Shown here piece after piece: positions 9,017 through 58,203 of a stretch of DNA of 64,000 nucleotides. The notes beneath the pieces were generated by a model. The model saw only the letters and a list, made by a program, of their open reading frames with translations. It made no database searches and was not told where the DNA came from. The translations under genes were made by a program, and so were the position numbers. Origin of the DNA: an uncultured Granulosicoccaceae bacterium. GTDB lineage: Bacteria > Pseudomonadota > Gammaproteobacteria > CALCKW01. How positions within the stretch are numbered: position 1 is the first letter of the stretch; each line of letters starts with the position of its first letter. The stretch is taken from assembly GCA_937925815.1 (NCBI GenBank), contig CALAMQ010000004.1:7099-71098 (forward strand), written 5' to 3'.

Positions 9017-9065
9017 TGATTGACTATAGCGTGTCGTGAGCGCATCCGCCCACTGACGCCCAGGC

Positions 9066-10517: not shown

Positions 10518-11429
10518 ATGTCTGACCATCCCCTGACCCCAGAAATTCCGCAAGCGCTGTTTGCCAATTGGCGCGAACGCCTGCCTGACTTCATTCGGCT
10601 GACCCGTTTGAACCGGCCAATCGGGGTATTACTGCTTGCGTGGTCAATGTACTGGGGCTTGTGGCTAGGTGCGGGCGGCTGGCCCGGAATCAAGCTTGTA
10701 GTGGTTTTCACGGTGGGTTGCATCCTCACGCGCTCGGCCGGCTGTTGCATCAATGACTACGCCGACCGCCACTTCGACGGCTTCGTGGCGCGCACCACAG
10801 ACCGCCCGATCGCTTCCGGGCGGGTATTGCCAGCAGAAGCGTTGTGGCTCGCCGGCGGGCTGACCGCGCTCGCAGCGGTTTTGCTGCTGTTCACCAACGC
10901 GCTGACGCTCTGGCTCGCGGTGCTCGCGGCCGTCCTCGCTGCCGCCTACCCCTTCTGCAAACGGGTGACGCACTTGCCGCAGATCGTGCTCGGCGCGGCC
11001 TTCGGCATGAGCATCCCGATGGCCTTTGCCGCCACCAGCGGCAGCGTGCCACCGCTTGGCTGGGCGGTGTTTCTGATTTCCTTGATCTGGTCGACGGCCT
11101 ACGACACCGAGTACGCCATGACCGACCGCGATGACGACCTCAAGATCGGCGTCAAGTCCACTGCCATCTTGCTTGGCCGCTTTGATGTCGCGGCGGTCGC
11201 GATCATGCTGCTCGCGGTGTTGCTCGGCCTCGCTGCAGTCGGTGCGCAGTTGCAATTTGGGTTTGCGTGGTGGCTCGGCCTCACAGGCGCCGCCGCCTCG
11301 GCGGGCTACCAAATCTGGCTGATCCGGGCGCGCGATCCCGCCAATTGCTTCCGCGCCTTTTTACACAACCACTATTTCGGCATGTCGGTGTTTGCCGGCC
11401 TGTTCGCCGAATACGCGCTGGCGAGCTGA
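10518..11429 (+). CDS. ubiA: 4-hydroxybenzoate octaprenyltransferase
   Basis: UbiA prenyltransferase motifs (NDYADRHFDG, second Asp-rich YDTEYAMTDRDDD); 303 aa; polytopic. Confidence 0.9.
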   Translation: MSDHPLTPEIPQALFANWRERLPDFIRLTRLNRPIGVLLLAWSMYWGLWLGAGGWPGIKLVVVFTVGCILTRSAGCCINDYADRHFDGFVARTTDRPIASGRVLPAEALWLAGGLTALAAVLLLFTNALTLWLAVLAAVLAAAYPFCKRVTHLPQIVLGAAFGMSIPMAFAATSGSVPPLGWAVFLISLIWSTAYDTEYAMTDRDDDLKIGVKSTAILLGRFDVAAVAIMLLAVLLGLAAVGAQLQFGFAWWLGLTGAAASAGYQIWLIRARDPANCFRAFLHNHYFGMSVFAGLFAEYALAS

Positions 11430-11433
11430 TCAC

Positions 11434-13128: not shown

Positions 13129-14690
13129 GCAATCACCTCGACACACTTGATGCGTTGAATGCCTGGGCCACTGGCGCACAGCAAGCCGGCTGGCTGGACA
13201 ACCAGCGACGCGAAGCCATCGCCGCACACCGCCCGCACGATCCAACCCAACTCTTCGCAAGCGGTGAGACAGCCCCGCTGGTGTTGGCGTTTTTTGGCGG
13301 TACCGGGGTTGGCAAAAGCAGCTTGCTCAACCGCCTCGCGGGCAGCGACGTTGCAAAAAGCGGCGTGGTGCGCCCGACCTCGCGGGAAGTGACCTTGTAT
13401 CTGCACGAGGACGTCGAACTTGCTTCACTGCCAGCAGAGTTGCCAGTTGAGCACACGCGCATCCAACGCCACGCCGTGGACGCGCACCGAGACGCTCTGT
13501 GGATCGACACACCAGACATTGATTCGGTGGTCACAACCCACCGCGACCAAGTCATGGCCTGGATGCCGTACATCGACTTACTGGTGTATGTGGTCTCACC
13601 TGAGCGCTACCGCGATGACGCCGGCTGGGACTTACTGCAACAACACCGCAAGCGCCACGACTGGGCTTTTGTGATCAATCACTGGGACCGCGGCGACCCA
13701 GCGCAGCGCGAGGACTTCATCGCGTTGTTGCGCGCCGGCGGCATCGACGACCCCGCCGTGTTTTGCACCGATTGCCGTGACGGCGGGTCACCGACAGACG
13801 ACTTCGAGCGCCTGCAAGCGCACGTCGCCGCCAGCAGTGAAGCGCTCGCCATTGCCGAGGCCCGCCAGCGCGGCGCTGCGACCGAACGCGCCGCACTTAC
13901 CGCACTGATTGAAAGCGCAACCGATGCACTCGGACACGACACGGCCTGGTCTGAGATTGACGCCACAATCGAATCTCAATTGACCGGTCTCGCGCAGCAC
14001 CTTGAATCCGACACGCACAGCAGCCGCGCAGCTGTGCACAGCCGGCTTTTCCCAGCGCCAGAGCCACCGTTTTGGCGTCGCGTGCTCGGCGCGCGCGAAC
14101 ACCCCAAGGCACCACCGGTCGACATCGAGGTCTGGACCGCACGCGGCGATGACCGCTTGATTGGCGCACTCGATAACCTGCTGATCGCAGCCGACGACGC
14201 GGCACTGCCGACCACACCGCTCCGGCAAGTCTTGACCCTCAAATCGTTGCACCCGGACGCCACAGTCAACGGCGCCTGCTCCGACGCACTGCACGCGGCG
14301 CTCGAAACCCCCGGCACCGCACTGCAACGCGGCGTACACCGGATGGCTCGGCTGCTCGCTATCGCACTGCCACTGATGGTGCTGCTGTGGGTCGGCCAGC
14401 GGGTGTTGCAGGGATTCCTCGCTGGCGCGAGCGACCCCACGCAATACATTGGCCTCAATTTCCTGACCAACAGCCTGATGTTGCTGGTCTTGAGCGCACT
14501 GCTGCCGGCTGCACTCGCCGAGTGGCTCAGGCCCTCGCAACGCGCGGCCTGCGCCACGGCGCTGCGAGAAGGGCTCAGGCAGGGTTGCATAACGCTCACT
14601 GCCACCGCACGGCATGAGCTCAGTGTTCTCAAAGGTTCGCGCGACAAATTATTGTCGTCGCTTAGAGCGATTGCCACCCGCCTCGACTGA
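13125..14690 (+). CDS. large P-loop GTPase with C-terminal membrane hairpin (paralog B of the tandem pair)
   Basis: G1 GGTGVGKSS, atypical G3 WIDTPDID, G4-like NHWD. Two predicted C-terminal TM helices (LLAIALPLMVLLWVGQRVL, LNFLTNSLMLLVLSALLPAALA); 521 aa; ATGA overlap with gene A. Confidence 0.6.
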   Translation: MSNHLDTLDALNAWATGAQQAGWLDNQRREAIAAHRPHDPTQLFASGETAPLVLAFFGGTGVGKSSLLNRLAGSDVAKSGVVRPTSREVTLYLHEDVELASLPAELPVEHTRIQRHAVDAHRDALWIDTPDIDSVVTTHRDQVMAWMPYIDLLVYVVSPERYRDDAGWDLLQQHRKRHDWAFVINHWDRGDPAQREDFIALLRAGGIDDPAVFCTDCRDGGSPTDDFERLQAHVAASSEALAIAEARQRGAATERAALTALIESATDALGHDTAWSEIDATIESQLTGLAQHLESDTHSSRAAVHSRLFPAPEPPFWRRVLGAREHPKAPPVDIEVWTARGDDRLIGALDNLLIAADDAALPTTPLRQVLTLKSLHPDATVNGACSDALHAALETPGTALQRGVHRMARLLAIALPLMVLLWVGQRVLQGFLAGASDPTQYIGLNFLTNSLMLLVLSALLPAALAEWLRPSQRAACATALREGLRQGCITLTATARHELSVLKGSRDKLLSSLRAIATRLD

Positions 14691-26626: not shown

Positions 26627-27520
26627 TCAGCCCTGTTTTCGCAAGGTCTCTGGCAGATACGCACTCCAGTCAACCGCGCTCTCGCCGGTGACAAAGAAGT
26701 GCGGGTTGAGCAGGGATTCTTTGGTGTTGTAGCGCAACTCATGCATGGCGGTGTCGGTGATATGCCCCCCCGCCTCTTCAACAATGCACTGCGCCGCCGC
26801 GGTGTCCCACTCAGAGGTGGGTCCGAGCCGGGCGTAGACGTCAGCGCGCCCCTCGGCCACCAGACAGGATTTGAGCGCACTGCCCATTGCCACTTCGTCG
26901 TGCGCGCCGAGTTGATCGAGAAAATATTGCAAATTCGGCCCCGCAACTGGCGCACGGCTGCGCGCAACCGTGACTCGGTCATCGGGCGTCTTGCGGCAGT
27001 GAATTTGCTCGGGCTCAGCGTTGAGCGCCGGCACTTTCCAAGCACCGTTGCCCCGCGTGCCGTAATAGAGCCAGTCCATCACCGGTGCGTAGATCACACC
27101 GAGGCAGGGTTCACCAAAATGCACCAGCGCGATGTTGACGCTGAATTCACCCGAGCCTTTGATAAATTCACGCGTGCCATCGAGCGGGTCGACCAGCCAA
27201 TAGGTGTCCCAGCCGTTGCGCTCGGCAAACGGCACGGCCGCGGCCGACTCTTCTGAGAGCACGGGAATGTTCGGCGTGAGTTGCTCGAGTGCGCAGGAGA
27301 TGTCGCGGTGCGCTTCGAGATCGGCCGTGGTCAACGGCGTCTCATCAGACTTTTCGGTGATTTCGTAATCGCCACGGTAAATCGTGGTGATCACATCACC
27401 GGCATGACGCGCAATCGCGATCACACGCGGCACCAAGCGGTTCAGCTCGTCGGGATCAAAACTGTTTAGCGTCTGACTTGGCGACTCAGCCACGGGAGTT
27501 GGCCCACACTCGACAATCAC
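26627..27520 (-). CDS. cysQ: 3'(2'),5'-bisphosphate nucleotidase
   Basis: Inositol-monophosphatase fold with CysQ-type motifs (WLVDPLDGTREF, DPLDGT). The start codon is uncertain (GTG at 27520 or an internal GTG). Confidence 0.8.
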   Translation of the reverse strand: MIVECGPTPVAESPSQTLNSFDPDELNRLVPRVIAIARHAGDVITTIYRGDYEITEKSDETPLTTADLEAHRDISCALEQLTPNIPVLSEESAAAVPFAERNGWDTYWLVDPLDGTREFIKGSGEFSVNIALVHFGEPCLGVIYAPVMDWLYYGTRGNGAWKVPALNAEPEQIHCRKTPDDRVTVARSRAPVAGPNLQYFLDQLGAHDEVAMGSALKSCLVAEGRADVYARLGPTSEWDTAAAQCIVEEAGGHITDTAMHELRYNTKESLLNPHFFVTGESAVDWSAYLPETLRKQG

Positions 27521-27679: not shown

Positions 27680-28432
27680 TCAGTTCAACTGTGTGAGGTT
27701 TCCGCTCTCGCGTATGCGGTAGCGGTTGCCCGATTCAGGCGTCGCAATTGAATCAAGTGTGAATTGCACGCCGCGGTCGGCGTCTGGTGATGGCACCGCG
27801 ACAATATCAGTCTGGTAGTCGCCGTTTGGGGCGAGCACCACGGTCCCACTCAAGGCGACGTCACCACCTTGATTTTGCAACACGCCGTGTGTGTCTCCGT
27901 CGCGCTCTTCGAGGGTCAGCGAGATGTCGCCAAGTGACACAGAGATCTGACCGATAACCTGCGACTGAGACCACTGCACGACGCCCGTCACCGGTCCAAA
28001 CTGTTGCTCACCGAGCGTAGCGTCGCTGAGTTCAACGCGCATGTCACCTATGAATTGCAGCACGCCAGGCAACACCAGTTTGTCCAACTGCTGCGCGCGA
28101 CCAGTCACCAGCACCTCACGCAGTGTCAGCACACGGCCTAGCCCAACTGAGGCCCAGCCCGCCCCGTCTACTTCTCCGTCCCAGTCAAAGGTGACGTCGG
28201 CGCCCAGTGCACCGCGCAACAAACTCGTAGGGGTCAGATCCCAGTCGAGATCGAGCATGCCGTTGACGGTGTGCAATCCGAACACCGATCCGCGCGCAAG
28301 CGTGCCGTTAAAACGCTCGCCGTCGCGCAGCATCTCTGGCATCCACGGTTGCACCCGACTCAGCGGCGTTTGCAACAGCAGGGTTGCCAGAAGGGCCAGG
28401 ACAAACAGCACCGCCAATCCAATCAATCGCAC
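27680..28432 (-). CDS. gspN: type II secretion system protein N
   Basis: Last gene of the gspG-N operon; 250 aa with an N-terminal TM anchor; position and size match GspN. Confidence 0.6.
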   Translation of the reverse strand: MRLIGLAVLFVLALLATLLLQTPLSRVQPWMPEMLRDGERFNGTLARGSVFGLHTVNGMLDLDWDLTPTSLLRGALGADVTFDWDGEVDGAGWASVGLGRVLTLREVLVTGRAQQLDKLVLPGVLQFIGDMRVELSDATLGEQQFGPVTGVVQWSQSQVIGQISVSLGDISLTLEERDGDTHGVLQNQGGDVALSGTVVLAPNGDYQTDIVAVPSPDADRGVQFTLDSIATPESGNRYRIRESGNLTQLN

Positions 28433-28433
28433 C

Positions 28434-28928
28434 TCAACGCTCCAGTGATATGCGCGCGCTCACCAATCCCGGCTGCCGGCGGCTGAGGTTGAGTTGGGTC
28501 ACGCGCAGGCCATAGCGCTGCTCGGCCACACCGAGCGCCCGCATCAGATCGTCCATGACAATGTCCGAGAACTGCACGCGGGCGCCGTCTTGGCCAAGCG
28601 GTTCAATGCGGCTCGGCTGACCGAGGCCCGCCTCGCGAAATGTCTGATCAAGTGCGGCAAGCGGGCTTGTATTGCGATCGGCGGCCGACGCCGCGCTGCC
28701 GCCAGATGATTGCAAACTGATGGCCTCACCGGCGGCAACCTGCATGTAACTGATTGACCTCACGTTGCCGTCAACGCGCGCCCGCGTGAGGGTCAAAGTG
28801 TCGACAAACGGGCGGATCGCGAGCAGGTAGAGCGCCAACAACAACAAGGTCACAGCGCAGAGCACGATCAGGATCTGTTCGCGCGGTGCGCGGGCTTGAA
28901 ACATCGCTAAGACATCGCGCGCGGTCAT
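28434..28928 (-). CDS. gspM: type II secretion system protein M
   Basis: 164 aa bitopic protein directly after gspL. Confidence 0.7.
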   Translation of the reverse strand: MTARDVLAMFQARAPREQILIVLCAVTLLLLALYLLAIRPFVDTLTLTRARVDGNVRSISYMQVAAGEAISLQSSGGSAASAADRNTSPLAALDQTFREAGLGQPSRIEPLGQDGARVQFSDIVMDDLMRALGVAEQRYGLRVTQLNLSRRQPGLVSARISLER

Positions 28929-30139
28929 ACCCGAGACTCCAAACGCAAACGTCCACGCACACCGCCCTGCTGCTGGTTGGCCGACTGCACCGTCGCCTGC
29001 ACTGCACCGCTTTGCTCTATCAACGATTTCAGGCGATCGAGCTCTTGCAAACTGGTGACTATCAATTCGACATCGGCGCGGCCCTGGCGGTAGTTGACGC
29101 TGTTGAGCGCCGCTCCAGGCGCGGCGTTGAGCGCCTCACCCAGCACCGCGAGTAAATCAAATACGCCGACCTCACTGCCGGCTTTGAGCGCGCTGAGACG
29201 GCTGCGCATCTGACCGACCGGTTCCTGGACCGTTCGCGCGCTGGGAAAAGCGCGCTGATACAGCGCCACCATCTGCGCGCGCTGGGCAGAATCGGTGGCT
29301 TTGAGTTGATTCAATTCGAACACGCTCGCAACCGCGAGGCACACAACCAAAACCGCCGCCAAAATGGCCGGTACCCGCCAGGGTGTGAGCGCCTTGCCCA
29401 GTTGCTGCTGCGGCCCAAATTCCCCTTGTAGGAGGTTGATACGCGGTGACGCGAGCCCGCGTGCAAAGGCGGCAACAGCCGCCTCAGTTGCGACCCGGTC
29501 AGACAGCAATTTGATTTCGGGTACGTGCAACGAACTGTCGCTGTACCACGTGATCTGCATTGGCGCACTTTCACCAGCCTCCGCCATCATCTTTGGCAGC
29601 AGGGTGTCGAGCAATCCGCGTTGACACCACAGTCCGCGGTGCCGACTCTGGCGGATCAGTGCCGCGTGCTGGTCGAACCAGACTTCCCACTCGTCACTCT
29701 CGCCCAGCGGCAACAGCTGCACGTCCGGCACCACTTCGCGCAACACCATGCCGTGCGCCTGCACGGCGTCAATCACGCGCCGCAGTACCGCTTTGGCGAC
29801 GACGGCCACGGGCACGCCGTCGTCGTTCTCCGCCGGGGCCAAGGCAAAATGCAAGTCCTCGACGTCGTCGGCGAGTTCTTCCTCAAGTGCCCAGGGCAGC
29901 GCGGCGAGTCCGCGGCGCCCACCCGGCACCGTGGCGCGTGTCAGCGTGACAACCGACGCACCGAGCGCGAGGATCACGCGGTAGCCCGACGCGGCTTTCG
30001 CGGCATCGGCGAGCGTACCCATCTCGACAAAGGGCGTATCCCCAAGCGACGGACGCTCTGGGGTGACGCACCAGCTCACAACGACCTCGTCGAGGTCAGC
30101 GACCGGGTCTGCGATGTGTAGGATCAGGATGTCGGGCAC
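28925..30139 (-). CDS. gspL: type II secretion system protein L
   Basis: 404 aa with a cytoplasmic actin-like N-domain, one TM helix (VPAILAAVLVVCLAVASVF) and a periplasmic C-domain. Confidence 0.75.
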   Translation of the reverse strand: MPDILILHIADPVADLDEVVVSWCVTPERPSLGDTPFVEMGTLADAAKAASGYRVILALGASVVTLTRATVPGGRRGLAALPWALEEELADDVEDLHFALAPAENDDGVPVAVVAKAVLRRVIDAVQAHGMVLREVVPDVQLLPLGESDEWEVWFDQHAALIRQSRHRGLWCQRGLLDTLLPKMMAEAGESAPMQITWYSDSSLHVPEIKLLSDRVATEAAVAAFARGLASPRINLLQGEFGPQQQLGKALTPWRVPAILAAVLVVCLAVASVFELNQLKATDSAQRAQMVALYQRAFPSARTVQEPVGQMRSRLSALKAGSEVGVFDLLAVLGEALNAAPGAALNSVNYRQGRADVELIVTSLQELDRLKSLIEQSGAVQATVQSANQQQGGVRGRLRLESRV

Positions 30140-30160
30140 AGGCTCATATCACGGTTAATT

Positions 30161-31225
30161 TCAATTCAGCGCTTGCCAGCGGCGCAATACCGCACTGCGG
30201 CCGTCGTCCGCCCGCTGCAACACACTGTACTGTGTCATAAATGATCCACCGAATTCTATGTCAGCGCGGACCAAGAAGTGTGAGCTTCCGACTGACAACA
30301 AATTTTTGACGGCATCGGGCAGCGCTTGATTCTCACCGTCCACTTCCACGGTGCTCGCCGCCACAAAGTCTTCAACACTCTCGTAGGGGCTGCGGTCTTC
30401 AACGTCCTCGTCGACCGAACCACTCAACGCATCGGCGACATCCACCCCCTCACCGCACTGCGGGTAACGCGTCCAGCCGTCATCTGGCCAACGGTGCAAG
30501 GTGTCGCCGTGCGAGCTGAGGTTGTCACTCAATGCACTGAGCAATTCCGGAGACGCGGTGTTGACGTTGATGAGCGTGCCGCGCGGCAAGGCCACAACAT
30601 AGGGCAGCAAGGTCTCGTAGGCCTCGATGGCGTCCTTGTCACGCCCGTTGAGTCCGTGCACTTGGCGAAGTTCCGTGGTTGAGACCAACGGTCCGTTGGC
30701 CGGCCGGTAGGGCGGATCTTGGGCAACGTAGGTCTCGAGCTCAGCGCCACCGCCCTCAAGCTGGGGTTCGCTATCACTGTCGATCCAATCAACGAGTGCG
30801 CGGGCTATATCGCGGTCGAGCGTGAGCGCGTCGAGCAGGCGCATAAAAACCGCGAGCTGCTCGGTGTCCACAACGCCGTTGGCGTCGACCAAATTGTTGA
30901 CGTTGAAGTGGCCATCGAGGTCGTACACGCAGCCGCTGATAGTGCCACCGGCAACCGGCAGCGGCGGGATACTGATCGCCCAACTGTCTTCGCGCGAGTC
31001 AATTGCATCGTCCTCTGGCGCATCACGTGAGAGCGTGGCGGCGGCAAAGCGTTCAGCGGCAGAAGCAATCGCCGCGGCTTGATCGATGTTTTGATACCCC
31101 TGGAACCGCCGCACCGTCAGGCTCTGGGTGCTCTGCATGTTCACAGCTGAAATGGTGGTGACAGCGACGATACCGAGCACCACCAACATGACCACCCCTG
31201 TTTGCTTTCCAGGACGCTGCATCAT
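30161..31225 (-). CDS. gspK: type II secretion system minor pseudopilin K
   Basis: 354 aa; N-terminal hydrophobic segment (VVMLVVLGIVAVTTISA) lacking the conserved Glu5, as expected for GspK. Confidence 0.75.
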   Translation of the reverse strand: MMQRPGKQTGVVMLVVLGIVAVTTISAVNMQSTQSLTVRRFQGYQNIDQAAAIASAAERFAAATLSRDAPEDDAIDSREDSWAISIPPLPVAGGTISGCVYDLDGHFNVNNLVDANGVVDTEQLAVFMRLLDALTLDRDIARALVDWIDSDSEPQLEGGGAELETYVAQDPPYRPANGPLVSTTELRQVHGLNGRDKDAIEAYETLLPYVVALPRGTLINVNTASPELLSALSDNLSSHGDTLHRWPDDGWTRYPQCGEGVDVADALSGSVDEDVEDRSPYESVEDFVAASTVEVDGENQALPDAVKNLLSVGSSHFLVRADIEFGGSFMTQYSVLQRADDGRSAVLRRWQALN

Positions 31226-31827
31226 GGCACTGCAAACAGTCTGTTGAGCGTGCCCAGCCGCTGGTGCGCCAATTCAACCTCCACCGCCGCAGGCAACAGG
31301 AAAGCCGCTTCTGGGTCAATATCAACTGGCGGCCATGTGCTGTGCCACTCGCCCGAGCGATCGAGGAAGCGCCAGGTGATTTGATCGATCTCAGCCAACA
31401 ACAAACGGTCGACAAAACTGCCCTCGACCATGCGATCGAGGTGAAACCAGCTGCGCCGCAATAAACGGTCGTCCTCAACGCGGTAGGCCACGCGTTGTAA
31501 CTCACTGCGTGGCGGCGTCAGCTCAGGTGCCGGATTGAACCAACCACCGCGCGTGAATTCGAGCACACTGCCATCAAAATCACTGTACTCGACAGCGCGC
31601 CGCTCGCCGCCAAGCTCGTCTGTAACCGGGCGCGCGGTGAGCTGACTCAGGTCGCGAGTCAACGTCAAGAACGTCCTCTCCAGGCTTGCAATTTCTGTCT
31701 GCAAGGCGTCAAGAGAACGCTCAACTCCCGTCACACTGCGCCAGCCTGCTATCGCGGCGGCACTGACAATCACGGTGATCACCATCGCGATCAACAATTC
31801 GATCAAGGTGAAACCCCGGGCTGTCAT
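31222..31827 (-). CDS. gspJ: type II secretion system minor pseudopilin J
   Basis: Prepilin-type N-terminus MTARGFTLIELLIAMVI; 201 aa. Confidence 0.8.
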   Translation of the reverse strand: MTARGFTLIELLIAMVITVIVSAAAIAGWRSVTGVERSLDALQTEIASLERTFLTLTRDLSQLTARPVTDELGGERRAVEYSDFDGSVLEFTRGGWFNPAPELTPPRSELQRVAYRVEDDRLLRRSWFHLDRMVEGSFVDRLLLAEIDQITWRFLDRSGEWHSTWPPVDIDPEAAFLLPAAVEVELAHQRLGTLNRLFAVP

Positions 31828-32219
31828 GGCTGAAGCACCACGCTCGGGTCACCCATAAAGCCCGTCACGGTTGCCAGCGCGCCGCTGGCTGATTCCCGCA
31901 GCCGGACTTGAATCGTGACCTGCCTCAAGAGCGCATCTTCTACGCGCTCAGTTTGCACTCGCCAGAACCAGGTCTGGCCTGCAAGCACCCGTTCACCCTC
32001 CTCCTTGCCGAGGTCCGGCCAGGCATTTTCGATCTGCATTTCAGTCAATTTGTCCGTGGCCACCCAACGCGCGAACGTTTTGTCACGCAGGTAATTGGCG
32101 CTGTTGGCGTAATCGACGCCAGCCTTGGTCAGTGCGGTGATCGCAGTTGCGACAATCGCGAGTGCAAACAGCACTTCGATCAACGTAAAGGCCCGGCTGC
32201 GCGAGATGCGTGTCACCAC
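31824..32219 (-). CDS. gspI: type II secretion system minor pseudopilin I
   Basis: Prepilin-type N-terminus RAFTLIEVLFALAIV; 131 aa. Confidence 0.8.
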   Translation of the reverse strand: MVTRISRSRAFTLIEVLFALAIVATAITALTKAGVDYANSANYLRDKTFARWVATDKLTEMQIENAWPDLGKEEGERVLAGQTWFWRVQTERVEDALLRQVTIQVRLRESASGALATVTGFMGDPSVVLQP

Positions 32220-32224
32220 CGGCT

Positions 32225-32785
32225 TCAGCGCGCCACGGTGCTGAGCGAGACGGGTTCGAGCGGCGTTGGCTCGAGATAGAACAGCCGCTCAGACTCGCGT
32301 GCGTTGACGATCAGGCGATACTGCGGCAAGAGTTCACCATCGGGTAAAAACCAAATATGCGGCACGACAGGCTCATCGTCTGCTTCGAGTTCCGCGAGTG
32401 TATTCAACGCGACCTGTTGTGCTTCGAGCTCGAGGTCGAGGAAGAGTTCGCCGTCGTCTTCAAACCGCGTGCCCTGGAGTTTGCCATCGGCGTCGTAATC
32501 AACCCAACTCCAATCGTCACCGTCAGCTTTCTGGCGCTGGAGAAAACGGTAACTGTCAGTGGTGACGAGCAAACCCAAGGTTGCGTTGTTGAGCAAGGCT
32601 TCATCCACAGCCAGCTGCAACATCACGTGCAGGCGCCGGGCGTGATCACGCTGTTGATCGCGGCCACCGCCAAAATTGACCCGCGTGACCGCAACGCTGC
32701 CAAGCACCCCGATGATCACCATCACCACGAGGATTTCGATCAGGGTAAAACCACGGCCGAGCGCCGGCCGCAGGTAGGCGGGCAT
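32225..32785 (-). CDS. gspH: type II secretion system minor pseudopilin H
   Basis: Prepilin-type N-terminus GRGFTLIEILVVMVIIG. I place the start at the ATG at 32783-32785; the ORF track's 32911 would overlap gspG. Confidence 0.8.
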   Translation of the reverse strand: MPAYLRPALGRGFTLIEILVVMVIIGVLGSVAVTRVNFGGGRDQQRDHARRLHVMLQLAVDEALLNNATLGLLVTTDSYRFLQRQKADGDDWSWVDYDADGKLQGTRFEDDGELFLDLELEAQQVALNTLAELEADDEPVVPHIWFLPDGELLPQYRLIVNARESERLFYLEPTPLEPVSLSTVAR

Positions 32786-32816
32786 CACAGGCGAGGCCAC
32801 GGAGTGTGCGGCGGTT

Positions 32817-33254
32817 TCAGGGGTTCCAGTTGCCGATATCGGCATCGGGGCCCTCGCCACCTGGCGCACCGTCTCGACCGAGGGTGTAGATGTCGATCTC
32901 ACCGTTCTCACCGGGGTTTAGGTAGACGTAATCGCGGTCCCAAGGATCTTTACTCAAGCGTTTGAGGTAACCACCGTCTTTCCAGTTGGGGGCTTCGTCG
33001 CCGGGGTTATCAACCAATGCCTGCAGGCCAACATCGGCACTGGGGTAGTTGAAATTGTCGAGGCGATAAATCTCAAGTGCCGATTCGATAGCGCTGATGT
33101 CCTGCTTTGCCTTGACCACACGCGCCTCGTCGGGGCGACCGAGAATGTTGGGCAAGATAAGCGTGCCGAGCACACCGAGGATCACGACAACAATCATGAT
33201 TTCAAGAAGCGTGAATCCGCGTTGCTTGGCGGCAACGAGGCCAGTGGTCGACAT
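32817..33254 (-). CDS. gspG: type II secretion system major pseudopilin G
   Basis: Classic GspG: KQRGFTLLEIMIVVVILGVL...AKQDISAIESALEIYRLDN...DPWDRDY; 145 aa. Confidence 0.9.
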   Translation of the reverse strand: MSTTGLVAAKQRGFTLLEIMIVVVILGVLGTLILPNILGRPDEARVVKAKQDISAIESALEIYRLDNFNYPSADVGLQALVDNPGDEAPNWKDGGYLKRLSKDPWDRDYVYLNPGENGEIDIYTLGRDGAPGGEGPDADIGNWNP

Positions 33255-33351
33255 GTCATTTCTCCAGCAAGGAACAGCTATGTGGAGCTAAGCTTAGCAG
33301 GGTGATCCAGATGTATTCCCGCTGGGACTTTGCGATGCGGCGCGCGGGGTA

Positions 33352-34071
33352 TTGCGCACCGTTTGTCTCCCAATAAAATGGCCAGTGGGTGTGCCAATTG
33401 CCGGATCACATCACGCCTGCGCCACCGTGACGCGGGCACTACCGCACCGGGCCTCGATAATTACTGTGTCGCCATACCACTTACTCTCCCCTTTTCGCCG
33501 TTGGTGGCTGCCTCTGTGCTTGTGCGCGCTGTGCGCTGCGCTCCAGTTCACGGGCCTGCGCGACACCTGGCGATTTGACCGCGATCTGATCGACACCGGC
33601 CACTGGTGGCTGTTGCTCTCGGGCAACTTCGTGCACCTCAATACCAACCACCTGCTGATGAACCTGCTCGGTGTCGGTGTGATCGCGATGCTCGTCTGGC
33701 ACTACCTGAACGCTGTGCAGTGGATGCTGTGCCTGGTCGTGAGTGCGCTGGCTGTCGGTGCCGGACTCTATTTTCGAGACCCCGACCTCAACTACTACGT
33801 CGGTCTGAGCGGCGCTCTGCACGGCTTGCTGCTCGCGGGACTTGTCATGGAAGTTGTGCGCTACCCCAAGAGCGGTTGGATACTGATGATCGCGGTGATC
33901 GGCAAACTCGGTTTTGAGCAGTGGCAAGGCGCAGTGCCCGGTTCTGAGTGGGCAGTGGGCGGCAAGGTCGTGGTCAACTCCCACCTCTACGGCGCAATCG
34001 CGGGACTCGCTGTCGGTGCTGTGTTCGCGACCACTCGAAAACGCACGCCCGACCCGTCCAGCGAAACATGA
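33352..34071 (+). CDS. rhombosortase (rhomboid-family intramembrane serine protease)
   Basis: Rhomboid motifs HLLMNLL, catalytic GLSGALHG (GxSG) and a downstream His in a TM helix. About 6 TM helices. The N-terminal start is uncertain. Confidence 0.6.
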   Translation: MRTVCLPIKWPVGVPIAGSHHACATVTRALPHRASIITVSPYHLLSPFRRWWLPLCLCALCAALQFTGLRDTWRFDRDLIDTGHWWLLLSGNFVHLNTNHLLMNLLGVGVIAMLVWHYLNAVQWMLCLVVSALAVGAGLYFRDPDLNYYVGLSGALHGLLLAGLVMEVVRYPKSGWILMIAVIGKLGFEQWQGAVPGSEWAVGGKVVVNSHLYGAIAGLAVGAVFATTRKRTPDPSSET

Positions 34072-34472
34072 GCGTGCACGACAACCATTTGAAATGGCCA
34101 GTGCTCTGGCATGCTGTGGGCGCCGCCATGCTGCTCGCGATCACGGTGTTATCACTCAGCCCTTCTGACGCGCCCTACCTCGTGTTTTTGTGGTGGGACA
34201 AGCTCATGCACTTTGTTGGCTACGCAATCATCGCGGCGTGGTACGCCGCGCTCGTGCCACGCGCCCACTTGCTGTGGGTACTGATCGGGTTGATTGCGTT
34301 GGGGGTCGGCATTGAGTTTGGGCAGGGTTTTGTCGCAGGCCGCAGCCGCGAAGCGCTCGACGCTCTGGCAAACACCTTGGGCGCAATCTCAGGGGTGGCA
34401 CTCGGTCTGACACCGTGGCGTCACCTTTTGCGGCTTGTCGAATCTATCCTCACCACGCGAGGCCGGGTCTAG
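34068..34472 (+). CDS. VanZ-family membrane protein
   Basis: 135 aa with 4 TM helices and a VanZ-like core (KLMHFVGYAII...GIEFGQGFVAGRSREALDALANTLGAISG). ATGA overlap with the rhombosortase stop. Confidence 0.55.
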   Translation: MSVHDNHLKWPVLWHAVGAAMLLAITVLSLSPSDAPYLVFLWWDKLMHFVGYAIIAAWYAALVPRAHLLWVLIGLIALGVGIEFGQGFVAGRSREALDALANTLGAISGVALGLTPWRHLLRLVESILTTRGRV

Positions 34473-34967
34473 ATGAGCACCAAGCAAATTGAACAGCGTG
34501 CCTTGCAATGCGCGCTTGTGCTCACCACGGCGTTGCTCGCAGCCGGCCTGTTTTTGCCCTTGCTCACCGTGCAAAAAATGGTGCTTTGGAAGAACACTTT
34601 GTCAGTTGTCAGCACGCTGAACGGGTTATGGCAAGGCGGGCACTATCTCTTGTTGCTGTTGATGGCAGTGTTCAGTGTGGTGTTGCCCGGACTCAAACTT
34701 GCGGTGTTATACCGCGTGGTTTTTAAGCCACCGCGCGGCAAAGCGCGAATGCAGCGCGCGCTGCGGCTCATGCACGACTACGGCCGCTGGGCAATGCTCG
34801 ATGTAATGGTCGTGGCAGTGTTGCTTGTCACGCTAAAACTCGGCGCACTAGCACAAGTTCAAATTCACGCAGGCTTGTACATTTTTGCAGCGGCGGTGCT
34901 GTTGATTGCGCTGATCACGCACCGCGTCTCAGCTCAACACCAGGGCAGGCGTCGCGCTCGCACCTGA
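34473..34967 (+). CDS. PqiA-domain (paraquat-inducible protein A-like) single-module membrane protein
   Basis: 164 aa; PqiA signature YGRWAMLDVMVVAVLLV; only one PqiA repeat; starts 1 nt after the VanZ gene stop. Confidence 0.55.
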   Translation: MSTKQIEQRALQCALVLTTALLAAGLFLPLLTVQKMVLWKNTLSVVSTLNGLWQGGHYLLLLLMAVFSVVLPGLKLAVLYRVVFKPPRGKARMQRALRLMHDYGRWAMLDVMVVAVLLVTLKLGALAQVQIHAGLYIFAAAVLLIALITHRVSAQHQGRRRART

Positions 34968-35538: not shown

Positions 35539-35922
35539 TCACACTGTGACAGGCTTGCCAATTGGCACGGCCATTTCCACTCGAGGATGCAATGGCCTGA
35601 GAACCTGGTGCCGGCGCACGCGATACAACTGCAGCTCAATGGACTTGTCCGCAACAGCGCGCGCGCTCACACGCCACAAGAATGACTGCGTGGGTTTTAT
35701 CGCCTCAGCCGGTACCCGCCAGGCTCGAGTTGACTGCCCGGCATTTTGGCGCAGTGGGCCAAGCGGCGCCGCAGCCACGCGCAACAATGGCGACGCTGCG
35801 CCCGCTGCCTCCTGTGATGACAGCGCCGAGCCAGCTGCCTGCCACAGCCCCGCAGAAGCCAGCGAGAAGACGCCTACCAGCCCCAAGAGTCCAATCAACC
35901 CAACGTGCCTGAGCCAGCGCAT
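35539..35922 (-). CDS. hypothetical secreted protein
   Basis: 127-aa ORF exactly filling the ilvA-peroxiredoxin gap, with a signal-peptide-like N-terminus (LIGLLGLVGVFSLASA). No recognisable family. An opposite-strand ORF covers the same span. Confidence 0.3.
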   Translation of the reverse strand: MRWLRHVGLIGLLGLVGVFSLASAGLWQAAGSALSSQEAAGAASPLLRVAAAPLGPLRQNAGQSTRAWRVPAEAIKPTQSFLWRVSARAVADKSIELQLYRVRRHQVLRPLHPRVEMAVPIGKPVTV

Positions 35923-37436: not shown

Positions 37437-37534
37437 GGAACTCAGGCCATCTGTTCGCAGCGGTTAGATCCATATGATAGAGCGTCTGCCAAGCCCGCTT
37501 GGTATGATTGTGTTTTCGCCAGCAGCGTGCCGAC

Positions 37535-38194
37535 ATGACCCCCGACGAGAAGAAAATTGCTGCGGCCCAAGCCGCGCTCAAAGAAGTCCCAGAAGACAGC
37601 TTGGTTGGCATCGGCACAGGCTCGACCGCAAACCACTTCATCGACTTGCTGGCAACTCAAAGACCGGACATCCGCCAAACTGTCGCGAGCTCTGACGCCA
37701 GCGCCGCACGACTGCGCGGCCACGGTATCGAGGTGCTCGACCTCAACGCCGCAGGCACGCTCGCGGTCTACGTCGACGGCGCTGACGAATCCGATAAGCA
37801 CCTGCGGCTGATCAAAGGCGGCGGCGCGGCGCTGACGCGTGAGAAAATCGTCGCGGCGGCGAGCACGCGCTTTGTGTGCATCGCCGACAACAGCAAGCTC
37901 GTCGACACGCTCGGTGCCTTCCCGCTGCCAGTCGAAGTCATCCCAATGGCGCGCAGTCTGGTCGGGCGTGCCATGGTCAAGCTCGGCGGCGACCCAGCGC
38001 TCAGAGAAGATGTCATCACTGACAACGGCAACCTGATCATCGACGTGCACAACTTGACGATCACAGACCCGGTCGCGATGGAAACAGAGATCAATCAGAT
38101 ACCGGGCGTGGTAACCGTCGGGTTGTTCGCCAGCCGGCCCGCTGACTTGTTGTTGCTCGCGGGTGACGACGGCGTCACCCAACTGAGCCGCTGA
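37535..38194 (+). CDS. rpiA: ribose-5-phosphate isomerase A
   Basis: Collinear with E. coli RpiA ([30 protein letters not shown]). I place the start at MTPDEKK; the ORF track adds 9 aa upstream. Confidence 0.9.
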
Positions 38195-38257
38195 ACCCAG
38201 ACCACGCATCCCGTTCTGCGCGCAGGCGCGCCTGATGCCAACCACCCAGGACGCTGT

Positions 38258-40405
38258 GTGACTGACAACCCTGACACCTGGCCACTGTTCCTCTCCGCCG
38301 CCAGAAGCCTCGAACCGCAACTCGCCGACGAAGCCACGGCGTTGGGCGCCAACGACGCCCGCGTCATGCGTGGCGGCGTGCGTTGCTCGGCCGATCTCGC
38401 CACACTCTACCGCCTCTGCCACCGCGCTCGGCTCGTGAGCCGCGTGTTGTTGCCGCTGGCAGAGTTTGCCGCGGGCGACGAGGCAGCGCTCTACGCTGGC
38501 ACCGTCGACGTTGACTGGTCAAACCACTTGTCAGCCGGTGCCACCATTGCAGTGGATTTCACAAGCTCGCGCTCCAAGCTCACCCACAGCCGTTTTGGCG
38601 CACAACGCGTGAAAGACGGCATCGTCGACAACTTGCGCGCGGCGCGCGGCGAACGCCCCGATGTGGACCGCGCACAACCCGACTGCCGCATCAACGCCTA
38701 CCTCTTCGACAACCGATTGAGCCTTTCTCTAGACCTCGGCGGCGGCGCGCTGCACCGCAGGCCCTGGCTCGCCGAGGGCGGACGCCCGGCACTTCCCGCC
38801 AATGTGGCCGCAGCTTTACTGCAGAAATTGGGCTGGCCAGATACGAATGCGGCCTCACCGAGCCTAATCAGTCTCTGGGGTCAGGACGCGACTCTTGCCA
38901 TTGAAGCTGCTGAAATTGCAGGTGGCTTGGCCGCCAACCGCGACCGCACCCACTGGGGGTTTTTCGGCTGGCAACACCATGACGACAGCGTCTGGGCGGC
39001 TGAGCAACAATCAACCCTTGGACCAGCGCCCCACTTCGACCCAGATATTGTTGTGATCGAGCCTGATCGCCGTCGCGCTGCCGTGGCTCGCGCCGCGGTC
39101 AGCGCGAGCGGTCTAGATATCGCGGTCGAGAACGCCAACCCAATCGACTGGCTTAACACAACAAGCTTGGCACCACAGAGCACCGTTTTAGCCACGCCAC
39201 TTGACGCCGCAGCCGAGGACCCAAGCTTGCTGTCGGCCCTTGGGCAATGTTTCAAGCAGCGCGCACTGGGCTGCTCAGCGGGCGTCCTGGTATCGACTCC
39301 AGAACACGGCAAACAACTTGGGTTCCGCGCACACAAGCGCAACCAGTATCAGGTTGCAGACGACACCCACAGCTGGTTTCAGTTCTCGCTCAGTGAAGAG
39401 AATGTCGTCGACCGCGAGGCTGCCGCAGAGCGCCAGCGCGCGCGTGAGCACAGCGATGCGCTAGCGCGCGGCGCTGACGCCCTGATGAATCGCATTGCCA
39501 AGAACCAGCGCACGCTCGGTAAGTGGGCGCAGCGCAGCGGCATCAGTTGTTACCGGCTCTACGACGCCGACTTGCCCGAATACGCGCTCGCAATCGACAT
39601 CTACGAAGATCACGCCCATATTCAGGAATACGCTGCGCCGTCGAGTATCGACCCCGAACGCGCAGCGCAGCGGCTGATCGACGCCAAAGCCGTGTTGCCG
39701 GGCGCACTTGGCATTGCGCCCGACCACTGCGTTTTCAAAGAACGCAGGCGACAGCGCGGCGACGCCCAATACCGCAAGCACGCAAACTCGGGGGAGTTCA
39801 TGCGCGTCACCGAGGCCGGTGCAACTTTCGCGGTCAATCTGCACGACTACCTCGACACCGGCCTCTTCCTCGACCACCGCGACACCCGCGCACTTGTCGC
39901 GTCCATGGCGCACGGCAAGAGCCTGCTCAACCTCTTTGGTTACACCGGTTCTGTCACGGTGCAAGCGGCGCTCGCAGGCGCCACCAGCAGCCTGACGGTT
40001 GATTTGTCGCAAACCTACCTCGACTGGGCGGGTCGAAATTTCTCGCTCAACAAGCTCGGCCCTGAGCATCGCCTGGAACGCGCAGACGTGCTGACGTGGC
40101 TCAACACCCACCGCGAACACTACGACCTGATCTTCCTCGACCCACCCACTTTTTCAAACTCCAAGAGCATGGCCGACACCTTCGACGTGCAGCGAGATCA
40201 TGTCGCGGTAATCCGCGACGCCCTGTCTTGCCTCGCACCGGGCGGGACCTTGGTTTTCTCCAACAACAACCGCCGGTTCAAACTCGACACCGACGCGCTT
40301 GCTGACTGCCAGATCGAGAACATCAGCCGCAAAACCTTGCCACGCGATTTTCAACGCAACCCGAAAATCCACAACGTCTGGCTGATCCAAGCCGCGGCCC
40401 TATGA
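38258..40405 (+). CDS. rlmL: bifunctional 23S rRNA m2G2445 / m7G2069 methyltransferase RlmKL
   Basis: 715 aa with N-terminal THUMP plus an RlmL-like MTase domain and a C-terminal RlmK-like MTase domain (LFGYTGSVTV, DPPTFSNSK); GTG start. Confidence 0.85.
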   Translation: MTDNPDTWPLFLSAARSLEPQLADEATALGANDARVMRGGVRCSADLATLYRLCHRARLVSRVLLPLAEFAAGDEAALYAGTVDVDWSNHLSAGATIAVDFTSSRSKLTHSRFGAQRVKDGIVDNLRAARGERPDVDRAQPDCRINAYLFDNRLSLSLDLGGGALHRRPWLAEGGRPALPANVAAALLQKLGWPDTNAASPSLISLWGQDATLAIEAAEIAGGLAANRDRTHWGFFGWQHHDDSVWAAEQQSTLGPAPHFDPDIVVIEPDRRRAAVARAAVSASGLDIAVENANPIDWLNTTSLAPQSTVLATPLDAAAEDPSLLSALGQCFKQRALGCSAGVLVSTPEHGKQLGFRAHKRNQYQVADDTHSWFQFSLSEENVVDREAAAERQRAREHSDALARGADALMNRIAKNQRTLGKWAQRSGISCYRLYDADLPEYALAIDIYEDHAHIQEYAAPSSIDPERAAQRLIDAKAVLPGALGIAPDHCVFKERRRQRGDAQYRKHANSGEFMRVTEAGATFAVNLHDYLDTGLFLDHRDTRALVASMAHGKSLLNLFGYTGSVTVQAALAGATSSLTVDLSQTYLDWAGRNFSLNKLGPEHRLERADVLTWLNTHREHYDLIFLDPPTFSNSKSMADTFDVQRDHVAVIRDALSCLAPGGTLVFSNNNRRFKLDTDALADCQIENISRKTLPRDFQRNPKIHNVWLIQAAAL

Positions 40406-58108: not shown

Positions 58109-58203
58109 TCTGGAAGTTCTCCCGAGTCCATATCGGGTGACGGCACGCAGCGGCGAGACTTGAGCACCGAGCCCGCGCCGCACTGGCTCTGAACTGCCGA
58201 GGA

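What the first reader, a model, noticed from the sequence alone, without database searches (positions are those of the whole stretch)
27680..34967. Partial T2SS operon (gspG-gspN only), divergent from a rhombosortase-VanZ-PqiA-like trio
All five pseudopilin genes plus gspL, gspM and gspN are present and tightly packed, several with overlapping stop and start codons. The secretin, C, ATPase, platform and prepilin peptidase genes (gspC/D/E/F/O) are absent from the window. Immediately upstream of gspG lies an opposite-strand promoter region and not gspF. The system is therefore split, or gspG-N is an independently transcribed module. Diverging from it are three genes: a rhombosortase, a VanZ-like protein with an overlapping ATGA, and a single-module PqiA-like protein. 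Rhombosortases process GlyGly-CTERM sorting signals on proteins that are exported by the T2SS in Vibrio, Shewanella and related genera. Adjacency to the gsp operon therefore suggests a coupled secretion and sorting pathway. No GlyGly-CTERM substrate gene is visible in this window.
Basis: partly seen in the sequence, partly recalled or inferred. Interest (0 to 1): 0.5.

Follow-up and report, generated by a model that had tools for sequence, protein, structure and literature searches.

The report
Rhombosortase gene wedged against split T2SS
This is the pseudopilin and assembly-platform half of a type II protein secretion system, transcribed back-to-back with a membrane protease (rhombosortase) that prepares cargo for it; the pairing recurs in dozens of gammaproteobacterial species and I found no paper in the searched library describing it.

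Summary
Window 27680-33254 (- strand) carries intact gspN-M-L-K-J-I-H-G. Window 33466-34967 (+ strand) carries a true rhombosortase (TIGR03902, 141.9 bits against a cutoff of 84; SGxLH hallmark), a VanZ-like gene and a single-module PqiA-like gene. No gspC/D/E/F/O lies in the 64 kb window or in the 9 kb beyond its right end.

The main new result comes from comparison. I examined 77 species-level genomes carrying the closest rhombosortases. In 65 of them, gspG sits divergently about 90-320 bp (distance between tblastn alignments) from rrtA. These genomes include Granulosicoccaceae, Woeseiaceae, Steroidobacteraceae, Nevskiaceae, Ectothiorhodospiraceae and Thiotrichales. The contexts are:
- **Type A:** gspCDEF, then rrtA on the opposite strand, then gspG-N.
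- **Type B:** gspN-G diverging from rrtA-metXW-gspCDEF.
- **Type C (window type):** no gspCDEF within the flank.

The rrtA|gspG junction stays constant while everything around it is rearranged. This argues for functional or regulatory coupling, which matches the experimentally shown dependence of GlyGly-CTERM cargo on rhombosortase plus T2SS in Vibrio cholerae. VanZ and PqiA-like are operon partners only in the window's own lineage (4 genomes).

Two things were not settled: where gspCDEF lies in this genome, and whether the genome encodes any GlyGly-CTERM substrates. The components are known; the conserved locus architecture is what I did not find described.

The parts
26627..27520 (-). cysQ-like inositol monophosphatase-family gene; the conserved boundary gene downstream of gspN
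   Evidence: PF00459, 165.5 bits. A cysQ homologue lies on the gspN side, adjacent or within about 2 kb, in at least 21 related loci of all three context types.
27680..28432 (-). gspN (T2SS protein N, 250 aa)
   Evidence: PF01203, 79.8 bits against a cutoff of 29.6. 61% identical to the L082 orthologue.
28434..28928 (-). gspM (164 aa)
   Evidence: PF04612, 90.8 bits.
28925..30139 (-). gspL (404 aa); 4-bp overlap with gspM
   Evidence: TIGR01709, 233 bits against a cutoff of 65. PF05134 plus PF12693.
30161..31225 (-). gspK, minor pseudopilin (354 aa)
   Evidence: NF037980, 228 bits against a cutoff of 130.
31222..31827 (-). gspJ, minor pseudopilin (201 aa); 4-bp overlaps with gspK and gspI
   Evidence: TIGR01711, 127 bits against a cutoff of 65.
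31824..32219 (-). gspI, minor pseudopilin (131 aa)
   Evidence: TIGR01707, 90.4 bits against a cutoff of 44.
32225..32785 (-). gspH, minor pseudopilin (186 aa from the ATG at 32785; the longest ORF extends to 32911 and would overlap gspG)
   Evidence: TIGR01708, 82.8 bits against a cutoff of 80, with the N-methyl motif at residues 53-75 of the long ORF. An independent gene call on an identical Logan contig gives 186 aa.
32817..33254 (-). gspG, major pseudopilin (145 aa)
   Evidence: TIGR01710, 170 bits against a cutoff of 89. 85-87% identical in lineage relatives.
33255..33465 (.). Divergent intergenic region shared by gspG and rrtA; contains the perfect 12-bp palindrome GCTAAGCTTAGC at 33287-33298
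   Evidence: Sequence read. The 10-bp core CTAAGCTTAG occurs once in the window. It also lies in the same intergenic region of L082 and L086. No sigma-70 consensus match was found.
33466..34071 (+). rrtA, rhombosortase (201 aa from the GTG at 33466; alternative upstream starts at 33427, 33385 and 33352)
   Evidence: TIGR03902, 141.9 bits against a cutoff of 84. Ser115, His119 (SGxLH) and His173 are invariant across 35 homologues. GlpG has Tyr where this clade has His119.
34068..34472 (+). VanZ-like small membrane protein (134 aa); ATGA overlap with the rrtA stop
   Evidence: PF04892, 32.8 bits against a cutoff of 30.1. The same position and overlap are seen in L082, L085 and L086. Absent next to rrtA in 80 other loci.
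34473..34967 (+). Single-module PqiA/LetA-like membrane protein (164 aa); starts directly after the vanZ stop
   Evidence: PF04403, 74.7 bits. It matches only the second module of PqiA (42 bits against cutoffs of 260 and 562) and of YebS in PDB 9n8w. The family is widespread elsewhere without rrtA, vanZ or gsp neighbours.

Best explanation
The region is the pseudopilus and inner-membrane platform half (gspGHIJKLMN) of a type II secretion system. It is physically separated from gspCDEF/O. It is transcribed divergently from an operon that begins with a true rhombosortase (rrtA), followed in this lineage by a VanZ-like gene and a half-size PqiA-like gene.

The rrtA|gspG back-to-back junction is an old, conserved feature of a large gammaproteobacterial clade. 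The likely ancestral layout is gspC-D-E-F, then rrtA on the opposite strand, then gspG-...-N and cysQ. The window's lineage kept the junction but lost the link to gspCDEF.

Proposed mechanism (inferred from the Vibrio cholerae work, not shown here):
1. Sec-exported proteins carrying a GlyGly-CTERM tail are held in the inner membrane.
2. RrtA cleaves the tail inside the membrane and leaves a glycerophosphoethanolamine-containing moiety on the new C-terminus.
3. The T2SS pseudopilus then pushes the modified cargo through the secretin to the cell surface.

The shared intergenic region would let the cell produce the sorting protease and the pseudopilus module together.

Shown here: gene identities, the split, and conservation of the junction. 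Inferred: co-regulation, the substrate class, and completion of the T2SS by genes elsewhere.
For: - **Gene identities.** All are above curated cutoffs.
- **Rhombosortase hallmarks.** The catalytic Ser and His, and the clade-specific His at Ser+4 (SGxLH), are present. Haft & Varghese 2011 (PMC3237569, read) describe this His at Ser+4.
- **Split confirmed.** No gspC/D/E/F lies in the window or in 9 kb beyond it, and gspN is followed directly by cysQ.
- **Synteny.** In 65 of 77 eligible genome-contig loci, gspG is divergent from rrtA.
- **Three contexts.** Type A has rrtA between gspF and gspG, in 11 loci plus L088 (CP070838.1). Type B is rrtA-metX-metW-gspCDEF, in 6 loci plus L087. Type C has no gspCDEF in the flank, in 48 loci, of which 31 have at least 8 kb downstream.
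- **Two loci reached by a different route.** Two loci found from GspE instead of rrtA both carry the rhomboid gene at the F/G junction.
- **Tree.** In a rough neighbour-joining tree, the linked state covers nearly the whole clade and unlinked loci form small nested groups.
- **Intactness.** All eight gsp genes are intact and conserved in three lineage relatives.
- **Published functional link.** VesB needs GlyGly-CTERM, rhombosortase and the T2SS in V. cholerae (PMC6219818). GspN is needed for surface delivery of lipidated T2SS cargo (PMC12802150).
Against: - No GlyGly-CTERM protein was found in the window. None was found in about 2 Mb of fetched loci either, apart from one locus that is not gsp-linked. 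Substrate existence in this clade is therefore unproven.
- Haft & Varghese listed two gammaproteobacteria with rhombosortase but no detectable GlyGly-CTERM.
- gspCDEF/O could not be located for this genome.
- No promoter consensus was found in the intergenic region.
- The 80 loci are the best matches to this rhombosortase out of more than 589, so the 84% linkage describes this clade and not rhombosortases in general. Pseudoalteromonas loci L051 and L071 are unlinked. The same is true of Vibrio by established knowledge.
Confidence: 0.75

Rival explanations
1. The adjacency is inherited gene order with no functional meaning. On this view rrtA happened to insert next to gspG in an ancestor and has simply not been separated since.
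For: Many flanking housekeeping genes (cysQ, metXW, yggT-proC, fabDG) are also syntenic in subsets of loci. Well-studied rhombosortase organisms, and the Pseudoalteromonas loci L051 and L071, work without adjacency.
Against: The rrtA|gspG junction survives an inversion of the gspCDEF block (type A versus type B) and complete removal of gspCDEF (type C). The genes on rrtA's other side differ between lineages: recG, a GNAT gene, fabD, metX, gspF, vanZ. It persists across RrtA divergence down to about 40% identity. Independent experiments already tie the two functions together (PMC6219818).
Confidence: 0.12
2. The gsp-embedded rhombosortase does not process classical GlyGly-CTERM cargo. Instead it acts on a divergent sorting signal, or on a membrane-anchored T2SS component such as a bitopic platform protein or a pseudopilin. 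That would make it an accessory subunit of this T2SS subclass.
For: No GlyGly-CTERM tails were found in the window or in the fetched loci of linked genomes. Haft & Varghese reported rhombosortase-positive gammaproteobacteria (HTCC5015, Thioalkalivibrio sulfidophilus) with no recognisable GlyGly-CTERM, and suggested divergent targets as one explanation. The gene sits inside the machine's own gene cluster, not near cargo genes.
Against: It passes the equivalog model TIGR03902 well above cutoff and keeps the SGxLH motif that best predicts GlyGly-CTERM co-occurrence. Only about 1.1 Mb from linked genomes was scanned, so finding zero substrates is not informative. In multi-substrate genomes, substrates are never next to rhombosortase (PMC3237569).
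Confidence: 0.1
3. gspG-N is a decaying remnant of a T2SS whose secretin, ATPase and platform genes have been lost.
For: gspC/D/E/F/O are absent from 73 kb of contiguous sequence, and none could be located for this lineage.
Against: All eight ORFs are full length, translationally coupled and above family cutoffs. They are conserved in three other genomes of the lineage and in about 48 type C genomes. GspG is the most conserved and GspN the least. Scattered T2SS genes are well known in Acinetobacter and Legionella (established knowledge).
Confidence: 0.03

Closest known systems
Vibrio cholerae Eps T2SS with rhombosortase RssP/RrtA and GlyGly-CTERM cargo such as VesB (Gadwal et al. 2018, PMC6219818; Haft & Varghese 2011, PMC3237569)
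   Same: The protease family is the same: the TIGR03902 equivalog, the Ser/His dyad, and His at Ser+4. The T2SS component families G-N are the same, including GspN. The presumed pathway is also the same: intramembrane cleavage of a C-terminal anchor followed by T2SS-dependent surface delivery.
   Different: In Vibrio the eps genes form one contiguous epsC-N operon, and rssP lies elsewhere on the chromosome (established knowledge). Here rrtA is back-to-back with gspG, gspCDEF is detached, and no substrate has been identified.
Split or scattered T2SS loci: Pseudomonas aeruginosa xcpPQ / xcpR-Z, Legionella lsp, Acinetobacter gsp (established knowledge; Acinetobacter in PMC4713064)
   Same: T2SS genes are distributed over more than one transcription unit or locus.
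   Different: The break point differs. Here it falls between gspF and gspG and is occupied by a rhombosortase gene. None of those systems is described with a sorting protease at the break.
Dedicated rhombosortase/single-substrate pairs (Haft & Varghese 2011, Table 3)
   Same: Conserved gene neighbourhood is used as evidence for a functional partner of rhombosortase.
   Different: There the neighbour is the substrate. Here the neighbour is the secretion machine, and no substrate is nearby. L048 in my set looks like a dedicated pair and is not gsp-linked.
PqiA / LetA (YebS) inner-membrane subunits of MCE lipid transporters (PDB 9n8w)
   Same: The 164-aa protein matches one PqiA module (PF04403, 74.7 bits; YebS residues 312-429).
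   Different: It has one module rather than two, no adjacent MCE (PqiB/LetB) gene, and scores far below the equivalog cutoffs. Its relatives elsewhere sit in unrelated housekeeping contexts.

Membership tests
Rhombosortase (RrtA/RssP, TIGR03902) | Score above the curated equivalog cutoff of TIGR03902 | tested here: met
   141.9 bits against a cutoff of 84, covering model positions 3-153 of 154.
Rhombosortase (RrtA/RssP, TIGR03902) | Rhomboid catalytic dyad: Ser in GxSG (TM4) and His (TM6) | tested here: met
   Ser115 (GLSGALHG) and His173 (NSHLYGA) are invariant in a 35-sequence alignment. They align to the GLSG of GlpG.
Rhombosortase (RrtA/RssP, TIGR03902) | His at Ser+4 (SGxLH), replacing the Tyr/Phe of other rhomboids. 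Haft & Varghese 2011 identified this as the best predictor of GlyGly-CTERM co-occurrence. | tested here: met
   His119 is invariant in A1. H. influenzae GlpG has GLSGVVY at the aligned position. The criterion was read.
Rhombosortase (RrtA/RssP, TIGR03902) | GlyGly-CTERM (TIGR03501) substrate(s) encoded in the same genome | not testable with these tools
   None in the window or in 9 kb beyond it.
Type II secretion system (Gsp) | Major pseudopilin GspG and minor pseudopilins GspH, I, J, K with a prepilin N-methylation motif | tested here: met
   TIGR01710, TIGR01708, TIGR01707, TIGR01711 and NF037980 are all above cutoff. PF07963 is found in G, H, I and J.
Type II secretion system (Gsp) | Assembly platform GspL and GspM (plus optional GspN) | tested here: met
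   TIGR01709 at 233 bits, PF04612 at 90.8 bits, PF01203 at 79.8 bits.
Type II secretion system (Gsp) | Secretin GspD, ATPase GspE, platform GspF and GspC present | tested here: not met
   Not in the window or in 9 kb to the right. This applies to the locus only; presence elsewhere in the genome could not be tested.
Type II secretion system (Gsp) | Prepilin peptidase (GspO/PilD) | tested here: not met
   No Peptidase_A24 hit among the window ORFs. This enzyme is often shared with type IV pili and encoded elsewhere (established knowledge).
PqiA/YebS (LetA) transporter subunit | Two PqiA modules, equivalog-level score, and an adjacent MCE partner (PqiB/LetB) | tested here: not met
   It has a single module of 164 aa. 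It scores 42 bits against cutoffs of 562 (NF011683) and 260 (TIGR00155), matching only the second module. There is no MCE gene in the window.
VanZ-like (PF04892) | Score above the Pfam gathering threshold | tested here: met
   32.8 bits against 30.1, which is marginal. Precomputed Pfam hits on the orthologues agree.

The most novel reading that the evidence does not exclude
Rhombosortase is an integral, co-evolving accessory of a distinct T2SS subclass. That subclass is defined by rrtA wedged between gspF and gspG, and usually carries gspN. On this reading the protease hands lipid-modified cargo directly to the pseudopilus/GspN apparatus, or recognises a sorting signal that TIGR03501 does not capture. 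In the window's lineage the co-transcribed VanZ-like and half-PqiA-like membrane proteins would be extra parts of this lipid-handling step.
Probability: 0.2. Interest if true: 0.7.

Novelty: new variant of a known kind. Interest (0 to 1): 0.5.

Why it matters
Haft & Varghese (2011) looked for evidence that rhombosortase marks a particular kind of T2SS and reported finding none. The functional link was later shown only by experiments in Vibrio, where the genes are far apart.

A conserved rrtA|gspG junction across many families gives independent, genome-level evidence for that coupling. It also defines a recognisable T2SS locus type in which the sorting protease is part of the machine's gene cluster. 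Finally, it points to abundant marine and sediment lineages (Granulosicoccaceae, Woeseiaceae, Thiotrichales) as places to study surface display by T2SS. It yields a simple testable prediction: rrtA and gspG-N are co-regulated from the shared intergenic region.

For annotation, it also shows that gspG-N can be its own transcription unit even in apparently contiguous gsp clusters.

Tried and rejected
1. **Locating gspCDEF of the window's genome.**
   - Exact-protein look-ups for left-end genes and for the annotated rhombosortase returned nothing.
   - The look-up of gspG returned only a 5.7 kb Logan contig.
   - A GspE homology search returned only close relatives of the query lineage, at 76-93% identity. 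None could be tied to the window's lineage.
2. **GlyGly-CTERM scans.** Two regular-expression scans covered the window and then all fetched loci, about 2 Mb in total. They returned only rhombosortase's own last helix, transporters, and one plausible tail in the unlinked locus L048. With so little sequence per genome, this is not evidence of absence.
3. **Promoter and terminator scan of the intergenic region.** No sites were found.
4. **Search for a clade-wide intergenic motif by k-mer counting.** The enriched 8-mers looked to me like codons of the GFTLIE/pseudopilin N-terminus rather than a regulatory motif; I did not check this further.
5. **Idea that VanZ and PqiA-like are general rhombosortase partners.** Rejected. 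A profile search found neither gene in 80 rhombosortase loci. In 80 metagenome loci carrying the PqiA-like family, none has vanZ, rrtA or gsp nearby.
6. **Idea that the protease is a generic GlpG-type rhomboid.** Rejected on the TIGR03902 score and the SGxLH motif.
7. **Naming the source organism.** The cluster look-up gave no names or accessions.

Full report
**1. What is in the window**

The - strand carries these genes:

| Gene | Coordinates |
|---|---|
| gspG | 32817-33254 |
| gspH | 32225-32785 |
| gspI | 31824-32219 |
| gspJ | 31222-31827 |
| gspK | 30161-31225 |
| gspL | 28925-30139 |
| gspM | 28434-28928 |
| gspN | 27680-28432 |

Every gene scores above its curated NCBIfam or Pfam cutoff. 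Four-base overlaps occur at I/J, J/K and L/M.

Directly downstream of gspN lies a cysQ-like inositol-monophosphatase gene, 26627-27520.

On the + strand there are three genes:
- **A rhomboid-family ORF ending at 34071.** It scores 141.9 bits on the rhombosortase equivalog TIGR03902, against a cutoff of 84.
- **A VanZ-like gene, 34068-34472.** It overlaps the rhombosortase stop codon in an ATGA.
- **A 164-aa protein with one PqiA module, 34473-34967**.

Homologues of the rhombosortase are 195-205 aa. The GTG at 33466 (201 aa) is therefore the most likely start, which leaves a 211-bp divergent intergenic region.

**2. Is it a real rhombosortase?**

Yes. Three lines of evidence agree:
- The HMM score is well above cutoff.
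- The catalytic Ser115 and His173 are invariant in a 35-sequence alignment.
- The residue four positions after the serine is an invariant His (SGALH).

Haft & Varghese 2011 single out this Tyr-to-His change as the feature that best predicts co-occurrence with GlyGly-CTERM proteins (PMC3237569). In the profile alignment to solved GlpG, the aligned GlpG segment reads GLSGVVY. No rhombosortase structure is in the PDB copy; only GlpG is found, at E of about 1e-5 to 1e-2.

**3. Is the T2SS really split here?**

Yes. All large ORFs of the 64 kb window were scanned against Pfam. None is a secretin, a GspE-type ATPase, GspF, GspC or an A24 prepilin peptidase. GspC/D/E/F taken from related loci were run by tblastn against the window and found nothing. 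A Logan contig identical to the window's right end extends 9,073 bp further and also holds no gsp gene. I could not obtain sequence beyond the left end.

**4. The comparative result**

The window's rhombosortase is 100% identical to a protein on an 83,415-bp NCBI/ENA contig. Its nearest named relatives are Granulosicoccaceae, at about 52% identity.

I fetched 80 loci, one genome per GTDB species, that carry the closest rhombosortases, each with 10-kb flanks. I mapped the window's proteins onto them by tblastn and clustered all their ORFs.

Of 77 loci with at least 1.2 kb upstream of rrtA, 65 have gspG divergent from rrtA. The two tblastn alignments lie 90-320 bp apart. Sixty-two of these carry at least five of the eight gsp genes in the window's order.

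The linked genomes are labelled as Granulosicoccaceae/Granulosicoccus, Thiotrichaceae/Thiotrichales, Woeseiaceae, Steroidobacteraceae, Nevskiaceae, Ectothiorhodospiraceae, and many unclassified Gammaproteobacteria.

Three contexts occur:
- **Type A (11 loci, e.g. L019).** The order is gspC-D-E-F, then rrtA on the opposite strand, then gspG...N. The 3' ends of gspF and rrtA overlap convergently. Pfam confirms the identities of C, D, E and F.
- **Type B (6 loci, e.g. L038).** gspN...G diverges from rrtA-metX-metW-gspC-D-E-F.
- **Type C (48 loci, 31 of them with at least 8 kb downstream).** No gspCDEF lies within the flank. What follows rrtA instead varies by lineage: recG, a GNAT gene or fabD-fabG.

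The window is type C.

Two further loci were reached from the other direction, starting from GspE hits. Both have the rhomboid gene at the F/G junction: L087 is type B, and L088 (the complete Thiotrichales MAG CP070838.1) is type A.

A rough neighbour-joining tree of the RrtA sequences places the linked state across nearly the whole clade. The unlinked loci fall into three small nested groups, and unlinked Pseudoalteromonas sits near the root.

The junction is therefore old. It has survived both an inversion and a removal of the gspCDEF block, and it is the one constant of the neighbourhood.

**5. The VanZ/PqiA-like pair**

Three metagenomic relatives have exactly the window's order, cysQ-gspN...G | rrtA-vanZ-pqiA-like | peroxiredoxin. 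Their RrtA is 58-70% identical to the window's depending on the alignment. Their gene coordinates show the same 4-bp rrtA/vanZ overlap.

Profiles built from the four VanZ-like and the four PqiA-like sequences find nothing in the other 80 rhombosortase loci. A scan of JGI metagenome contigs returned 80 loci with the PqiA-like family, at 44-55% identity. None has vanZ, rrtA or gsp genes nearby. Many sit beside a DEAD-box helicase, glycogen synthase and zwf; those identities are my reading of the ORF N-termini and were not HMM-tested.

The pair is thus a lineage-specific addition to the rrtA operon. The 164-aa protein is not a PqiA orthologue. It has one module, scores 42 bits against cutoffs of 260-562, and has no MCE partner.

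A role in lipid handling for the rhombosortase reaction is conceivable but is pure speculation.

**6. Substrates**

No GlyGly-CTERM-like tail is encoded in the window. None is encoded in the fetched flanks of linked genomes either. One plausible tail lies convergent to rrtA in L048, which is not gsp-linked; it resembles the 'dedicated pair' class of Haft & Varghese.

Only about 17 kb per genome was available, so this says nothing about genome-wide presence. Haft & Varghese found that substrates are never adjacent to rhombosortase in multi-substrate genomes. They also listed two gammaproteobacteria with rhombosortase but no recognisable GlyGly-CTERM. That keeps a divergent-substrate reading alive.

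**7. Mechanism**

- **Shown:** the identities of the parts, the split, translational coupling within each operon, and strong conservation of the divergent junction.
- **Taken from the literature:**
  - V. cholerae VesB needs its GlyGly-CTERM, rhombosortase and the T2SS to reach the surface.
  - VesB carries a glycerophosphoethanolamine-containing modification after cleavage (PMC6219818).
  - GspN, an AsmA-like beta-taco protein, is needed for surface delivery of lipidated T2SS cargo in Acinetobacter and Klebsiella (PMC12802150).
- **Inferred:** in this clade rrtA and gspG-N are co-regulated from the shared intergenic region. RrtA-processed, lipid-modified cargo is passed to a GspN-containing T2SS whose C/D/E/F/O parts are encoded elsewhere.

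A simple sigma-70 scan found no promoter in the intergenic region. A perfect 12-bp palindrome, GCTAAGCTTAGC at 33287-33298, lies 33 bp upstream of the gspG start. Its 10-bp core is also present in the same intergenic region of two lineage relatives and nowhere else in the window. It is a candidate operator for this lineage only.

**8. Comparison with what is known, and novelty**

T2SS, rhombosortase and their functional link are all known, and split gsp loci are common. I could not find any description of rrtA as a fixed neighbour of gspG, or embedded between gspF and gspG.
- Full-text searches for rhombosortase with type II secretion or with gspG, and for rhomboid with gspF and gspG, returned no paper noting it.
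- The two key papers do not mention adjacency.
- Haft & Varghese state that they found no evidence that rhombosortase marks a T2SS subclass.

The library does not cover subscription journals or database annotations, so prior notice elsewhere cannot be excluded.

I rate this a new variant of a known kind, of moderate interest. It is a clean genomic-context confirmation of an experimentally known coupling, it defines a T2SS locus type, and it is not a new mechanism.

**9. Limits**

- The 80 loci are the best of more than 589 matches, so the 84% linkage applies to this clade only.
- Gene calls in the loci are simple longest-ORF calls.
- The tree is a rough distance tree.
- The whereabouts of gspCDEF/O and of substrates in the window's genome remain open.

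Noticed in passing
window 33287-33298: Perfect 12-bp palindrome GCTAAGCTTAGC, 33 bp upstream of the gspG start codon. The 10-bp core occurs once in the window. It also lies in the gspG-rrtA intergenic region of L082 (same position) and L086 (different position), but not of L085. It is a candidate operator site.
   Followed up: partly
window 26627-27520; L001-L064 (many): A cysQ-like inositol monophosphatase gene lies on the gspN side (adjacent or within about 2 kb) in the window and in at least 21 related loci of all three context types. The gspN-side boundary of the cluster is therefore conserved as well. In 19 loci a small CxxCxxCC (PF03692) gene sits between gspN and cysQ.
   Followed up: partly
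window 57668-58267 (-): A lone type IV pilin gene (PF00114 Pilin plus an N-methyl motif), next to putA (58204-61863) and far from any pilus assembly genes. It implies that a prepilin peptidase exists somewhere in the genome and could also serve the T2SS.
   Followed up: no
L019 10517-10573; L088 12806-12853: In type A loci the 3' ends of gspF and rrtA overlap convergently, by about 50-57 bp with simple ORF calls. This would put the two transcripts in antisense contact.
   Followed up: no
L087 14782-18274; L088 1534-4990: Three tandem T2SSE-family ATPase genes (344-390 aa, looking like pilT/pilU) lie a few kb from the gspCDEF block, next to proC-yggT, in both loci reached through GspE.
   Followed up: no
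L048 around 9276 (- strand), convergent with rrtA at 8665-9264: An ORF ending in ...EWLGGALILAAAWLAARSAR looks like a GlyGly-CTERM tail, directly next to a rhombosortase that is not gsp-linked. This matches the 'dedicated single-substrate' class.
   Followed up: no
window 37442-38422 (-) versus 37508-38194 (+): The 326-aa minus-strand ORF has no family hit and is probably spurious. By synteny with L082 and L085, the real gene here is likely rpiA on the + strand. Compared with those relatives, the window also lacks the M20/M28 peptidase between the peroxiredoxin gene and ilvA, and has an unmatched 127-aa ORF (35539-35922) in its place. It also lacks the gamma-glutamyltranspeptidase gene before rlmL.
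   Followed up: no
window 11392-14690 (+): Two adjacent large GTPase-like genes (578 and 521 aa, with weak MMR_HSR1/dynamin-N hits), resembling a bacterial dynamin-like pair.
   Followed up: no
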